64,000 bases of DNA from an uncultured Eubacteriales bacterium. Lineage in GTDB: Bacteria; Bacillota; Clostridia; Oscillospirales; Ruminococcaceae. Positions 2,662-44,161 of this stretch are shown piece by piece. The position numbers were made by a program, and so were the translations under genes. The notes under the pieces are model-generated. The model was not told where the DNA came from, did no database searches, and saw only the letters and a program-made list of their open reading frames with translations. Positions within the stretch are counted from its first letter, which is position 1, and each line of letters starts with the position of its first letter. The DNA is taken from NCBI GenBank assembly GCA_900319075.1, contig ONMZ01000004.1, positions 2,357 to 66,356 on the forward strand, read 5' to 3'.

Positions 2662-3960
2662 ATGAAGATAAAGGGTTTGATCCTTGACCATAAAAAGAAT
2701 ACCTCCGGGGCAAAAACCGTAGAGCTTCCGCTGCCAAAACAGGTGCGCATAGCCATGCAGCAGTGCGGCGGTGCAGCCTGTGATGTGCTTGTAAAGCCGG
2801 GGGATAAGGTATTTGTGGGACAGAAGATAGGTGACAGCGACAAGTATATGTCCGTGCCGGTACACTCTTCTGTGTCGGGAAAGGTAACAGGTATAAGCGA
2901 GCTTTTACAGGTAGGCGGAAGGACCTGTAAGTGCGTTGATATTGAAACAGACGGAGAGCAGACGCTGTATGAGGGGATAAAGCCCCCTGAGGTAACAGAC
3001 GCAGAAAGCTTTTGCACAGCACTTAGAGAGTCGGGCTGCTGCGGACTTGGGGGAGCAGGCTTTCCAACCCATGTAAAACTGGGTTTTGATCAAGAGAAAT
3101 ATAAGGTGGATACGCTTATAATAAATGCCGCCGAATGCGAGCCGTACCTTACAGGCGACCACCGCACCATGCTTGAGGACACAGCCGACATTTTCGATGC
3201 CATAGGGGCAATAAAAAAATACATTGGCATTAAAAACGTTCACATAGGTATAGAAAAAAACAAGCCTGATGCCATAGATGTTATGCGTGGCAATGCCGCA
3301 AAGTATGACAGCTCGGTGAGAATAACCGCCCTTGATACAAAGTATCCCCAGGGTGCGGAAAAGGTCATAGTATATAACCTTACCGGAAAGATCATCAGAG
3401 AGGGACAGATACCTGCGGACGTGGGAGTTGTTGTGATGAACGTTTCCACCTGTGCGTTTATAGGAAAATATCTGCGAACGGGAATGCCGCTTGTGAGCAA
3501 AAGGCTGACAGTCAGCGGTGACGCCGTGGGCAGTCCCTGTAACGTAAATGTCCCCATAGGTACCAGCTTTGAGGACGTTTTATGGTATGCCGACAGCGAC
3601 CCGGAAAAGATAGGAAAGGTCATTGCAGGCGGCCCGATGATGGGGACAGACATTTTTGACCTTCAGGATCCTGTGTGCAAGACCTGCAGCGGTATACTTG
3701 CCATGAGGCAGGGCGGGGACCGTCCCGGAGAAAGGGTGCAGACAGCCTGCATACGCTGCGGAAGATGCATAAAGGTATGCCCGGTGGGGCTGATGCCTAC
3801 GGTGCTTGAAAAAGCGTTTGATAAAAAGGACAGAAAAACTTTGTCCAAAATGAAGGTGTCGCTGTGTATGAACTGCGGCAGCTGTTCATACGTGTGTCCG
3901 GCAAAAAGAGACCTTGCAGAGAAAAACCAGCTTGCCAAGGCTTTGCTCAGGACAATTTAA
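2662..3960 (+). CDS. rnfC: Rnf complex subunit C
   Basis: GLGGAGFPT, NAAECEPY, YPQGAEK, two 4Fe-4S motifs (CIRCGRC..CP, CMNCGSC..CP). Confidence 0.96.
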   Translation: MKIKGLILDHKKNTSGAKTVELPLPKQVRIAMQQCGGAACDVLVKPGDKVFVGQKIGDSDKYMSVPVHSSVSGKVTGISELLQVGGRTCKCVDIETDGEQTLYEGIKPPEVTDAESFCTALRESGCCGLGGAGFPTHVKLGFDQEKYKVDTLIINAAECEPYLTGDHRTMLEDTADIFDAIGAIKKYIGIKNVHIGIEKNKPDAIDVMRGNAAKYDSSVRITALDTKYPQGAEKVIVYNLTGKIIREGQIPADVGVVVMNVSTCAFIGKYLRTGMPLVSKRLTVSGDAVGSPCNVNVPIGTSFEDVLWYADSDPEKIGKVIAGGPMMGTDIFDLQDPVCKTCSGILAMRQGGDRPGERVQTACIRCGRCIKVCPVGLMPTVLEKAFDKKDRKTLSKMKVSLCMNCGSCSYVCPAKRDLAEKNQLAKALLRTI

Positions 3961-11521: not shown

Positions 11522-12142
11522 TTAATCTTTTGTTTTTAGTCTTGTGGCTTTTATGACTTTCAGTCGTGAGAATTCCTCACGGTCTTTTTCTTCAAGTGAA
11601 TCGGTGATATATTTTACGATGTTCTGATTTCTTGGGATTATAATATTTTGCAGGGCGTTTGCACGGCGCTGGGTCTTTCTTATGGCAACGCAAAGCCTGT
11701 ATATGCCGTTTTCCACCTCTGCAAGCACCGCCGTCATTTCCTTTACCTTTTCAAAAGCGATGTACGCCCTGTCAAGGGCAGAGGTAGTTCTTGAAAAGCC
11801 GTAATAGACCTTTTTTGGCTTTTTCTCCAGATGTACCGCAGGCAGATCTACACCCATAACGCTCTGGGAGCTGACAGACACTCCGTTTTCAATGGGGATG
11901 GTATTTGCAAAGGGAGTAACCACTCCCAGCGAGATATTTGCCTTCTGCAAAGCCAGGTAAGCCTCTGAGTAGGTGCCTTCAATAGACGAACGCAGCATCT
12001 GTGCCTTGTCCACCAGCTTCATAAGTTCCCGGATAAGGATATTACGTTTTCTATCAAGAAGGTCGTAGCCCAGCGTTGCCAGCTGCAAAGCCTTTTTGGA
12101 AAGCATAAGATTACCCTTGGTAGGGAACACCTGCTGCTCCAT
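11522..12142 (-). CDS. ntpD: V/A-type ATP synthase subunit D
   Basis: PTKGNL, GYDLLDRKRNIL, KTQRRANAL.NIIIP, E.DREEF.RLK. Confidence 0.95.
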   Translation of the reverse strand: MEQQVFPTKGNLMLSKKALQLATLGYDLLDRKRNILIRELMKLVDKAQMLRSSIEGTYSEAYLALQKANISLGVVTPFANTIPIENGVSVSSQSVMGVDLPAVHLEKKPKKVYYGFSRTTSALDRAYIAFEKVKEMTAVLAEVENGIYRLCVAIRKTQRRANALQNIIIPRNQNIVKYITDSLEEKDREEFSRLKVIKATRLKTKD

Positions 12143-12206
12143 TGATAACACCGTCCTTTCAGATCGAAATAGTATAAAGATTATAAAATAATGTGACTTA
12201 ATGAAC

Positions 12207-12554
12207 AAGTTAATTCTTGGAGAGCCGTTGAGGATCCTCTTGGTGTTCTACTGGCAGAGACCTTCTGGAAGAATTATTCTCCAATCTCTTTTCTTAGACT
12301 CTCAGTCATTTTTACACATCGGGCATACTGCCCGATGTGTAAAAATCATTAAAAGTTTTAGGAGAAGGGTACACCGGCAAAGCCGGCGTGCGAGAATATC
12401 CTTTGGATATTCTCGGCTTGGGATCAGAGAATTGACCCAAAGGTCAATTCTCCGTAGCTAACGGCATTGCCGTTAGCGAAACCCATTTTTCAAAAGGGTT
12501 TCCACCAATAAAGCACCAAAAGGGGTTCCCCCAACTATTCACCAAACATTGCTT
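12207..12554. repeat. REPIN-like long imperfect palindrome with extra hairpin modules (copy A)
   Basis: Perfect 18-bp central stem 12308-12346; hairpins at 12374-12386, 12391-12415, 12427-12452, 12457-12477, 12478-12502; arms related by degenerate inversion; similar to 43924-44137. Confidence 0.8.
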
Positions 12555-13935
12555 TGGCTTTTTCGGGATCGTAGAATTTATCGAGATGCTCGTCATCGAC
12601 TCTGTCAAGTTCGGCACGGGGCAGTGTGGAAAGCAAAGCCCAGCCCAGATCAAGGGTCTCATTGATAGTTCTGTTCACATCAAATCCCTGGTTGATAAAA
12701 TTCTCCTCAAACAGCTTGCCGAAGTTCATATACGCCTTGTCACCCTCGGAAAGCTCCTCCTCTCCGATAACGGATGCAAGAGCTCTTGCGTCCTGAACTT
12801 TTGAATAAGCGGCAAACAGCTGGTTTGCACACATTGAGTGATCCTCACGGGTATAGCCCTCACCGATGCCGTCTTTCATAAGTCTTGAAAGGCTTGGGAG
12901 CACGGAAACGGCAGGATAGGTGCCCGTTTGTTCAAGGTGCCTGTCCATAACTATCTGTCCCTCGGTGATATAGCCTGTAAGGTCGGGGACAGGGTGAGTG
13001 ATGTCGTCGTTGGGCATTGTAAGGATAGGTATCTGGGTAACAGAGCCGTTTGAGCCTTTTACGATGCCTGCTCTTTCATATATTGATGCAAGGTCGGAAT
13101 AAAGGTAGCCGGGGTAGCCTTTTCTTCCCGGTATCTCCCCCTTTGAGGACGAAAACTCTCTGCACGCCTCGGCATAGGAGGTCATATCGGTCAGGATAAC
13201 AAGGATATGCATATCATGCTCAAAGGCAAGATACTCCGCACAGGTAAGAGCACATCTTGGGGTAAGTATCCTTTCGATGATAGGGTCGTTTGAGAGGTTG
13301 ATGAACATGGCGACTCTTTCAAGTGCGCCTGTTTCCTCAAAGCTGCGCTTGAAGTAATCTGCTACATCGTTTTTAACGCCCATTGCGCCAAACACGATAC
13401 CAAAGCCCTGACCGTTTTCATCGGCGATCTTAGCCTGTCTTGCGATCTGTACCGCAAGCTTGTTGTGGGAAAGACCCGAACCTGAGAAAATTGGCAGCTT
13501 CTGTCCCCGGATAAGGGTCATAAGTGCGTCGATAGAGGAGATCCCCGTGTTTATATAGTTTCTGGGATATGTCCTTGATACAGGGTTGAGAGGGCTGCCG
13601 TTTATGTCTTTGTACTTATCGGCAACGACCTCGCCAAGTCCGTCGATAGGTCTGCCCGAGCCGCTGAAGATCCTTCCCAGCATCTCCTTTGAAAGACCCA
13701 GCTCCATAGGTTTTCCGCTGAAGCGAGTAGTTGTATTGGTAAGAGAAAGCCCTTTTGTTCCCTCAAAGACCTGAAGTACGGCTTTGTCCTCCTGGACCTC
13801 CACCACTCTGGCGAGTCTGCGTGTGCCGTCGGAAAGGCGGATCTGGGCGATCTCGTCAAAGGCAACGCCCTTAACGTTATCCAGTACCACAAGCGGTCCG
13901 TTTATTTCGGAAAGCCCCACATATTTCAGTTCCAA
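12535..13935 (-). CDS. ntpB: V/A-type ATP synthase subunit B
   Basis: [55 protein letters not shown]. Confidence 0.97.
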
Positions 13936-28728: not shown

Positions 28729-28745
28729 CAGATCGGTAAGGTTGT

Positions 28746-28783
28746 TTGGGGGACAGTCCTTTTGGATAAGGGTTGTCCCCCGA
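28746..28783 (+). repeat. Single REP-like hairpin of the same family as 43952-43988
   Basis: GGGGACAGTCCTTTTGGATAAGGGTTGTCCCC vs GGGGAAAACCCTTTTGGAGAAGGGTTGATCCCC. Confidence 0.6.
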
Positions 28784-42920: not shown

Positions 42921-43931
42921 ATGAAGATACTTGGAATAGAAAGCTCCTGTGATGAGACTGCCTGCTCGGTGGTGCAGGACGGCAAGACGGTGCTTTCAAA
43001 CATCGTTGCCAGCCAGATAGACGAGCATAGGCTGTACGGCGGAGTTGTGCCGGAGATAGCATCACGCCGCCACGCCGAGAACATCGGCTGGGTGACGAGA
43101 AAGGCCCTTGAAAAGGCAGAGTGCACCCTTGACGACATTGATGCCGTTGCGGTCACCTACGCCCCGGGGCTTATTGGTGCGCTTCTGGTAGGTGTAAGCT
43201 TTGCAAAGGGGCTTGCGATGAGCGCAAAAAAACCGCTCGTTCCCGTGCATCACATAGCAGGGCATATCGCAGCAAACTATATCTCGCACCCCGATCTGAA
43301 ACCGCCTTATCTGTGCCTTGTGGTATCGGGGGGACATTCTCATATCGTTGAGGTGCTTGACTATACAAAATACCATGTTATCGGGCGCACCCGTGACGAT
43401 GCGGCAGGAGAGTGTTTTGACAAGGTGGCAAGGACCCTTGGATATGAATACCCCGGGGGAAAGTTTATCGACGCTGCGGCAAAAAAGGGAAACGATAAAG
43501 CCTTTGATCTGCCCCACCCGAAGGTACAGGGAAGCGAGTATGACTTCTCGTTTTCGGGACTTAAAACAGCTGTGATAAACCTTGTGCATAATTCTCAGCA
43601 AAAGGGGATCGAAATAAACCGAGAGGATATGGCGGCATCTTTCCAGAAAACTATCGGGGAAATATTGTGCAAAAAAACCATGCTTGCCGCAAAGGATCTG
43701 GGGCACAAGACCATTGCTGTTGCAGGCGGTGTGTCGGCAAATTCCGTCGTGCGTGAGATGATGAGCGAGCAGTGTGCAAAGCGTGGGTATGAGCTGTTTC
43801 TTCCCGAGCTGAAATACTGCGGCGACAACGGCGCAATGATAGCCTGCCAGGGGTATTACGATTTTCTTGCAGGTAAGCGTGGGGATATGAGCCTTAATGC
43901 AGTTGCGACCATGAGCCTTGAAAATCTCTGA
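42921..43931 (+). CDS. tsaD: tRNA t6A37 threonylcarbamoyltransferase
   Basis: LGIESSCDET, GGVVPEIASR.H, HHIAGH, SGGHS, DDAAGE.FDK, FSFSGLKT, DNGAMIA. Confidence 0.97.
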   Translation: MKILGIESSCDETACSVVQDGKTVLSNIVASQIDEHRLYGGVVPEIASRRHAENIGWVTRKALEKAECTLDDIDAVAVTYAPGLIGALLVGVSFAKGLAMSAKKPLVPVHHIAGHIAANYISHPDLKPPYLCLVVSGGHSHIVEVLDYTKYHVIGRTRDDAAGECFDKVARTLGYEYPGGKFIDAAAKKGNDKAFDLPHPKVQGSEYDFSFSGLKTAVINLVHNSQQKGIEINREDMAASFQKTIGEILCKKTMLAAKDLGHKTIAVAGGVSANSVVREMMSEQCAKRGYELFLPELKYCGDNGAMIACQGYYDFLAGKRGDMSLNAVATMSLENL

Positions 43932-44137
43932 ACGGTTTGTTCGGAGAATAATTGGGGAAAACCCTTTTGGAGAAGGGTTGATCCCCAAACCCCTTTCCTA
44001 AACCTCTTAATGCAATTCGAGGATATGGGGAAGAACCCCATATCCCCGAATTGTACTGAAAGTCTAAGAGAGAGTTCAGAGAATAGCACTTCCAAGAGGA
44101 TACTCTCAATTATTCAGCGGACAGACTGTTCAAAAAT
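43924..44137. repeat. REPIN-like long imperfect palindrome (copy B)
   Basis: Central ~20-bp stem 44011-44055; REP-like hairpin 43952-43988; 44108-44137 matches the reverse complement of 43924-43953 at 23/30. Confidence 0.8.
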
Positions 44138-44161
44138 ACCAAGAAACAGGAGCATACACTT

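What the first reader, a model, noticed from the sequence alone, without database searches (positions are those of the whole stretch)
12207..12554. Mirror element A: degenerate inverted copy that reaches into the host gene's stop codon and skips hairpins
Seen: inside the V-ATPase operon, the ntpB-ntpD spacer is one large palindrome centred on a perfect 18-bp stem (12308-12346). Reading outward, the right arm is CATTAAAAGTTTTAGGAGAAGGGT-[2 hairpins]-TTGGGATCA-[2 hairpins]-AAACCCATTTTTCAAAAGGGTTTCCACCAATAAAGCACCAAAAGGGGTTCCCCCAACTATTCACCAA. The reverse complement of the left arm is GACTGAGAGTCTAAGAAAAGAGA-TTGGAGAA-TAATTCTTCCAGAAGGTCTCTGCCAGTAGAACACCAAGAGGATCCTCAACGGCTCTCCAA. The left arm mirrors the right with frequent, mostly transition mismatches that break homopolymers, omits the four side hairpins, and appears to extend over the last codons of ntpB (..CTATTCACCAA), where the match is weaker. 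Inference: either fold-back or template-switch copying that duplicates flanking host DNA and jumps hairpins, or a multi-branch mRNA structure sequestering the stop codon and tuning ntpD expression, or later hairpin insertion into one arm. I know of no description of this combination.
Basis: partly seen in the sequence, partly recalled or inferred. Interest (0 to 1): 0.75.

Follow-up and report, generated by a model that had tools for sequence, protein, structure and literature searches.

The report
Hairpin repeat mirroring neighbouring gene ends
The gap between two ATP-synthase genes holds one of at least 37 copies of an apparently undescribed long hairpin repeat of rumen Ruminococcus whose free arm, in about a third of the places tested, imperfectly mirrors the end of whichever gene it sits behind, likely because the hairpin is kept paired but never perfect.

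Summary
Real, not an artefact (contigs from other studies carry it). The ntpB-ntpD spacer holds one copy of a dispersed, non-coding hairpin family (at least 37 copies here; five related genomes; a few other genera): a conserved homopolymer unit and a degenerate partner unit, inverted around a perfect stem, like a REPIN/BIME heterodimer. Two first-reader ideas fail. The focal mirror arm is mostly inherited (69/76 identical to a copy at another locus). The side hairpins are optional modules of the conserved arm, not skipped by copying. One idea holds family-wide: the distal arm matches the last 18 coding bases of its own host gene at 10 of 28 independent loci (p<=0.05 each); at this locus the match is weak (p 0.015-0.045). 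Mismatches are transitions (2-2.6:1; background 0.54:1), evenly spaced (no perfect run above 10 bp), conserved across species at some loci, and not biased to G-U on the mRNA. Best model: selection for a paired-but-imperfect hairpin on both DNA strands, extended into flanks by substitutions and short template switches. No mobiliser found. New variant of a known kind.

The parts
12535..13935 (-). ntpB, V-type ATPase subunit B; stop codon at 12535-12537; its last ~7 codons (12536-12556) face the distal mirror
   Evidence: FGE-stop end also in G006 and G023, which lack this element in the spacer
12507..12534 (+). tail of the conserved arm with a partial tandem duplication of the terminal palindrome; same subtype tail in L072
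   Evidence: (D2)
12478..12506 (+). 3' half and terminal palindrome of the conserved homopolymer unit
12457..12477 (+). side hairpin 4 (optional module; loop seen in both orientations among copies)
12427..12452 (+). side hairpin 3 (optional module)
12391..12415 (+). side hairpin 2 (optional module)
12371..12389 (+). side hairpin 1 (optional module, imperfect)
12347..12369 (+). start of the conserved arm, the family's most conserved motif
12308..12346 (.). central perfect 18-bp stem, 3-nt loop; sequence differs between subfamilies, A/T-run flanks are constant
12227..12307 (-). inherited degenerate partner unit (mirror arm); 69 of first 76 nt identical to non-orthologous copy L072
12206..12226 (-). 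distal mirror facing the ntpB end: 12/21 identical to ntpB, 12/21 to the inherited tail of L072
11522..12142 (-). ntpD, V-type ATPase subunit D; its leader resembles the 39-nt empty spacer of G006

Best explanation
This is one copy of a dispersed, non-coding hairpin repeat made of two related palindromic units inverted around a perfect stem, and its imperfect mirror arm is likely kept paired-but-never-perfect by selection on a hairpin that would fold on both DNA strands, the pairing likely creeping into the neighbouring host sequence through substitutions and short template-switch patches. Shown: multi-copy family; strong polarity (conserved unit towards a stop codon); inherited mirror arm; optional side hairpins; locus-specific mirroring of about 12-20 coding bases at about a third of loci; transition excess; even spacing of mismatches; exact conservation of some orthologous mirror arms. 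Inferred: (1) the copies spread as non-autonomous elements and exchange modules by gene conversion (same insertion sites hold different mosaics in two species); mobiliser unknown. (2) A transition leaves a G-T wobble on one strand and A-C on the other, so it is the mismatch that least harms a structure needed on both strands, while breaks every <=10 bp limit palindrome instability or dsRNA cleavage. (3) In resident copies the free distal arm is remodelled to pair with whatever lies opposite, including stop codons, ribosome-binding sites or promoters. Any effect on ntpB/ntpD mRNA would be secondary.
For: Copies: 37 in G000, 14-53 pattern matches in each of 5 relatives. Polarity: an ORF ends within 100 nt of the conserved side in 88 of 119 copies. 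Both units intact in other genera (G058, G247, G121). Flank mirroring; own tail ranks first for 20 of 48 mirrors, top three for 35. Transitions:transversions 554:211 (core) and 207:104 (unique tails) against 510:938 at four-fold sites. Longest perfect run 6.3 vs 8.0 expected, max 10, n=42; 5.95 vs 7.0 in 22 unique tails, p=0.011. DNA folds equally on both strands (sense better in 20 of 42). Mirror arms 58/58 and 56/56 identical where four-fold sites differ at 36-46%. Template-switch signs: loop flips, perfect patches of 19 and 26 nt in other genera; template switching is reported to homogenise and expand inverted repeats (PMC13100816, PMC5941160, abstracts).
Against: No protein or process that uses the hairpin was found. 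Compensatory changes between orthologues are not significant (17 vs 9 columns, p=0.17). 5 of 13 orthologous pairs have mirror arms only 72-85% alike, and spacer DNA beyond the element is often 85-92% conserved too, which weakens the purifying-selection argument. Copies are related, so pooled p-values for the core overstate. Four-fold sites at 39% divergence are an imperfect neutral yardstick. Most loci (18 of 28) show no significant reach into the gene, and an unanchored test found only 7 of 50.
Confidence: 0.5

Rival explanations
1. The hairpin is selected as an mRNA structure: it stabilises or is cut in the transcript behind the stop codon and sets upstream/downstream ratios, as intergenic stem-loops do in Ruminiclostridium operons; A-C mismatches would keep it soft enough for ribosomes or tune nuclease cutting.
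For: Strict polarity to stop codons; last four codons plus stop predicted to pair with the distal mirror (mean p>0.4) at 23 of 38 loci; long stems with unpaired regions direct cleavage in R. cellulolyticum (PMC10311766, passages); both arms appear in RNA-library contigs joined to ntpD and ntpB (X16).
Against: G-U:A-C on the mRNA strand is 220:334 and 96:111 against 142:76 in terminator-like hairpins of the same genome (Fisher p 2e-10 and 1e-4); the antisense RNA folds better in 36 of 42; the spacer is empty or holds another repeat in close relatives.
Confidence: 0.22
2. Neutral concerted evolution: template switching keeps converting the later-copied arm towards the gene-side arm, and mismatch repair reverts the patches that cover transition differences, so transitions accumulate without any function.
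For: Explains polarity, loop flips, perfect patches and transition excess without selection; MutS is present; no SbcD above cut-off in G000, G009, G058 (G000 is 87% complete); repair suppresses quasipalindrome mutations in yeast (bioRxiv 2023.08.09.552703, abstract).
Against: Conversion should leave long perfect runs, yet runs are shorter than random in this clade; mismatches are kept unchanged across three species; a title in the reference list of PMC7202029 calls E. coli template-switch hotspots resistant to mismatch correction (paper not read).
Confidence: 0.15
3. A dedicated enzyme makes the distal arm by error-prone fold-back copying of the flank at insertion, writing transitions at about one site in four.
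For: Locus-specific mirrors of 40-110 nt beyond the unit in G247 and G192, one including promoter boxes; all four transition types occur at similar rates in unique tails.
Against: The focal distal arm still resembles an inherited tail; identity fades gradually with distance instead of ending sharply; mismatches are evenly spaced, not random; near-identical young copies move with fixed arms; neither of 2 RT genes nor any Y1 transposase lies by a copy.
Confidence: 0.1
4. The mirror into the host gene is chance plus family motif, or the degenerate arm is a sequencing artefact.
For: At this locus p is only 0.015-0.045, and the family tail motif already resembles a Gly-Glu-stop end.
Against: Independent contigs; the family-level signal survives a second null and removal of Glu-stop genes (8 of 21 loci, Fisher 5e-4).
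Confidence: 0.03

Closest known systems
REPINs / BIMEs (REP doublets; E. coli y/z1/z2 heterodimers; PMC3337134 parts 1-2 read, PMC3333891 passages, PMC3733652 passages)
   Same: Non-coding, extragenic, multi-copy; two related palindromic units in inverted orientation around a structured spacer; heterodimers; higher-order mosaics; insertion into other palindromes.
   Different: Units about 60 nt, homopolymer-rich, no GTAG/CGTC tag seen; no RAYT found; one unit degenerate in this clade; pairing extends into locus-specific host DNA, which the passages read do not describe.
Prokaryotic MITEs (Correia, ERIC, RUP; PMC10969869 and PMC11602168 passages)
   Same: Size 200-550 nt, no ORF; one subfamily and its composites end in a 12-nt inverted motif; long stem-loops near gene 3' ends.
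   Different: No target duplication shown; focal and most resident copies lack the terminal motif; internal modules are swapped at fixed sites.
Quasi-palindrome template switching (PMC5941160, PMC13100816 abstracts; PMC7202029 passages)
   Same: Copies one arm onto the other, flips loops, extends inverted repeats into flanks.
   Different: Known outcome is perfect arms; here arms stay about 65-70% identical with evenly spaced transitions.
SRPS intergenic stem-loops of Ruminiclostridium (PMC10311766 passages)
   Same: Stem-loops with unpaired regions between genes of operons for protein complexes, in related clostridia.
   Different: Those are unique sequences acting on the mRNA; these are repeats with no G-U bias on the mRNA strand.

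Membership tests
REPIN/BIME | two related palindromic units in inverted orientation forming a larger hairpin | tested here: met
REPIN/BIME | multi-copy and extragenic | tested here: met
   37 copies in G000; next to gene ends in 88 of 119 copies
REPIN/BIME | GTAG or CGTC tetranucleotide at the palindrome foot | tested here: not met
   by inspection of the aligned copies; not counted by script
REPIN/BIME | cognate RAYT flanked by the repeat | tested here: not met
   NF047646 above cut-off in 0 of 5 genomes; 1 own and 16 relatives' Y1 hits lack the unit's palindrome; G000 is 87% complete
REPIN/BIME | cleavage or excision by a Y1 transposase | not testable with these tools
   needs biochemistry or deep population reads
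MITE | terminal inverted repeats of 10-15 bp or more | tested here: inconclusive
   12-nt motif at both ends of 7 composites in relatives, 36 exact copies vs <1 expected in G000; absent from the focal copy
MITE | target-site duplication | tested here: inconclusive
   ends are mostly flanked by T and A, but the one empty orthologous site found (L064) was too diverged
MITE | autonomous IS with the same ends | tested here: not met
   none seen beside the motif in G000; only a loose link to a serine recombinase
known structured RNA (Rfam) | match at gathering score | tested here: not met
   10 sub-threshold hits, 8 of them miRNA-type hairpins
intrinsic terminator | GC stem followed by a U run | tested here: not met
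   0 found in 12100-12650; the central stem has T before and A after on both strands
SRPS stem-loop | processing site and unequal transcript levels at the stem-loop | not testable with these tools
   only assembled contigs of RNA runs were available
DGR or retron-like RT element | linked RT and adenine-specific change | tested here: not met
   2 RT genes without the repeat; all four transitions occur

The most novel reading that the evidence does not exclude
An undescribed class of bacterial hairpin element that rewrites its free arm to pair with whatever host sequence lies opposite (stop codon, ribosome-binding site, promoter, even a second gene's end) by a self-templated, wobble-preserving copying or conversion process, thereby duplicating promoters in inverted orientation and capturing host ends into new mobile units.
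Probability: 0.15. Interest if true: 0.85.

Novelty: new variant of a known kind. Interest (0 to 1): 0.52.

Why it matters
It gives dozens of natural replicates of one question: how long inverted repeats persist and grow in bacterial chromosomes. The arms are held at about 65-70% identity with evenly spaced transitions and reach into coding ends, the opposite of the perfect arms that template switching is known to leave. The family occurs in a cultured Ruminococcus (L132), so DNA-level and RNA-level models can be told apart at the bench. If host flanks and promoters are actively mirrored, this is a new route to regulatory change; if not, it is still an uncatalogued repeat family that breaks short-read assemblies of these genomes (16 of 37 copies start within 300 nt of a contig end).

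Tried and rejected
Artefact: rejected. Rfam, terminator and promoter scans: nothing beyond chance. Plasmids and phages: no match; one pattern scan of viral contigs: 0. Mobilisers: own IS200-like Y1 gene has no repeat nearby; 16 Y1 hits in 3 of 5 relatives lack the unit (L147 has only a loose anchor match); RAYT model below cut-off in 5 of 5 genomes; two RTs unlinked; of 30 serine-recombinase loci 3 carry a terminal-like motif, circumstantial only. An unanchored 30-nt test of flank mirroring was weak (7 of 50); the first anchored version (12 of 39) mis-placed the anchor in copies with side hairpins and was redone. Covariation between orthologues not significant. RNA contigs: X15 has no cover at 12162-12296 but X16 covers it, and X16 has none at 12317-12416; gaps in contigs prove nothing. 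Literature: ten searches listed no description of this family or of its terminal motif; subscription journals are not covered, and the MITE catalogue in the supplements of PMC11602168 was not opened and may hold some copies unnamed. Earlier scan notes: none by sequence or place.

Full report
Observation. With the hairpins left out and no bonus for transitions, the arms align with 63 identities, 24 transitions, 9 transversions and 15 gap columns; 0 of 2000 shuffles reach the score. Contigs from runs not flagged as the source carry the same sequence (X4: 12124-12800, 0 differences; X14: 12149-12691, 6 differences), and a cultured Ruminococcus carries the family (L132). It is not an artefact.

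It is a repeat. BLAST and profile searches of the genome give many copies; 37 have both the conserved start and the terminal palindrome. A start pattern matches 14-53 times in each of five relatives chosen for their hits, in 5 of 301 genomes of the family sample and 3 of 251 of the class sample, own genome included. In other genera both arms are intact, related palindromic units in inverted orientation; in this clade one unit is degenerate. I analysed all G000 copies plus loci for 90 of the 124 matches; 78 had a central stem and left flank. An ORF ends within 100 nt of the conserved side in 88 of 119 copies with enough flank. A young subfamily and its composites end in a 12-nt inverted motif (36 exact copies, fewer than 1 expected).

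Side hairpins are not skipped. 22 of 67 full copies have hairpins in the conserved arm and 1 of 67 has such a motif in the mirror arm. Orthologous copies with and without them have identical mirror arms (C33/L032 versus L051, 58/58; L100 versus L076, 56/56). The focal set is 87% identical to sets in other copies, and loops occur in both orientations.

Most of the focal mirror is inherited. Its first 76 nt are 69/76 identical to L072, a copy at an unrelated locus with no side hairpins. Its distal 21 nt match ntpB at 12, the L072 tail at 12, and L072 itself matches ntpB at 10. This looks like an inherited tail nudged towards the host, not a fresh copy. Whether the Gly-Glu-stop end is host or element is open: two relatives without the element have it, but the family tail motif resembles it and a close relative with another spacer ends Phe-Gln-stop.

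Family-wide, the distal arm does mirror its own host. An unanchored test was weak (7 of 50). Anchored at the unit end, for copies with a unique tail, a stop within 60 nt and an alignable unit end (38 loci, 28 orthologous groups; one of the 39 loci dropped), the 18 coding bases before the stop match the mirror better than other gene ends at p<=0.05 in 16 of 38 loci and 9 of 28 groups (Fisher 2e-6). Against other copies' mirrors: 16 of 38, 10 of 28, and 8 of 21 without Glu-stop genes (5e-4); for bases 7-24, 5 of 28 (0.005); for bases 25-42, nothing. Several of these gene ends are the same in G000 orthologues that lack the element there (L071, L076/L100, L082, L096), so they are host DNA. Identity fades over 40-50 nt. 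The focal locus is a weak example (p 0.015-0.045).

The mismatches are not random decay. Transitions:transversions are 554:211 in the unit and 207:104 in unique tails (60 non-redundant copies) against 510:938 at 3690 four-fold sites between G000 and G009. The longest perfect run outside the central stem averages 6.3 against 8.0 expected and never exceeds 10 (42 copies; unique tails alone p=0.011). Some orthologous mirror arms are unchanged where four-fold sites differ at 36-46%, though 5 of 13 pairs are only 72-85% alike and neighbouring spacer DNA is often well conserved too. Compensatory change is suggestive only (17 vs 9, p=0.17).

Which strand? On the mRNA of the upstream gene G-U:A-C is 220:334 and 96:111, against 142:76 in 258 terminator-like hairpins of the same genome. 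The antisense RNA folds better in 36 of 42 copies; DNA folds equally (20 of 42). A plain mRNA helix is therefore unlikely to be the selected form, though the stop region is predicted to pair with the mirror at 23 of 38 loci (0.24 at the focal locus) and polarity to stop codons is strong. Polarity could also reflect replication direction, since most genes in these bacteria run with the fork (own knowledge).

Mechanism. I favour (0.5) a REPIN/BIME-like heterodimer whose arms are under stabilising selection to pair on both DNA strands without long perfect runs, with pairing spreading into flanks by substitution and short template switches; perfect patches of 19 and 26 nt in other genera and loop flips fit the latter (PMC5941160 and PMC13100816, abstracts; PMC7202029, passages). 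Rivals: mRNA processing or stabilisation as in Ruminiclostridium (0.22; PMC10311766, passages), neutral conversion filtered by mismatch repair (0.15), one-step error-prone copying (0.1). No mobiliser was found. The V-ATPase spacer is empty in G006 (39 nt) and holds other repeats in other relatives, so this copy is not needed in this form.

Comparison and novelty. It works like a REPIN/BIME (PMC3337134 parts 1-2; PMC3333891 and PMC3733652 passages) but fails the tag and RAYT tests, so I do not file it as one; MITE membership is inconclusive (PMC10969869, PMC11602168 passages). Rfam, plasmids, phages and viral contigs give nothing. Ten literature searches listed no description of the family (listings only unless named above). 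Earlier scan notes on heptamer hairpins at stop codons are analogues with other building blocks, not checked here. Verdict: new variant of a known kind; the locus-specific, transition-rich, evenly broken mirror is the surprising part. Interest 0.52.

Noticed in passing
window ~43925-44145 (G000:C25:46373, minus strand): Second full copy of the family in the window, without side hairpins, behind a gene ending TMSLENL; a related copy with another central stem sits at the same site in G011 (L080). A remnant lies at about window 28738-28783.
   Followed up: yes
L193/L163 (G247:C27, ~165100-165500): Doublet whose mirror runs about 165 nt and includes sigma-70-like -35/-10 boxes on both arms, pointing outwards, with a 19-nt perfect patch.
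   Followed up: partly
L176/L203 (G058:C88): Element between convergent genes whose two coding ends mirror each other.
   Followed up: partly
G000:C24:9736-11923, C24:113, C41:43055; L272: The 12-nt terminal motif of the young subfamily also precedes two deleted fragments of a large serine recombinase gene and lies about 600 nt behind an intact 526-aa one; the same junction context occurs in G247. Possible recombination site.
   Followed up: partly
window 12159-12544 (runs X17, X18): A relative 97-98% identical in ntpB and ntpD has another repeat in this spacer, like that of G009, and its ntpB ends Phe-Gln-stop; so the Gly-Glu-stop end travels with the spacer allele.
   Followed up: partly
G000:C22:39971, C40:48716, C40:70676, C45:52487, C52:36475 and others: One subfamily sits in the loops of bidirectional terminator-like hairpins (by inspection).
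   Followed up: no
L069, L070 versus G000 C47/C27 and C10/C43: Same insertion sites in two species but different internal modules, each matching the resident subfamilies: concerted evolution among dispersed copies.
   Followed up: partly
L004, L005, L006; G000:C9:7774-8155, C52:61400-61730: A second hairpin-mosaic repeat family shares side-hairpin modules and the terminal motif, joins the first in composites, and fills the ntpB-ntpD spacer in three relatives.
   Followed up: no
L161 (G000:C14) and L162 (G000:C22): Two stand-alone RT genes (401 and 362 aa); L162 lies behind a 144-aa ORF and a lectin-like ORF, an arrangement that recalls a diversity-generating retroelement (label from recall).
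   Followed up: no
L015, L019 (ntpB-ntpD spacers of G016, G013): GTAG-type REP-like hairpins occupy the same spacer in two more distant relatives.
   Followed up: no
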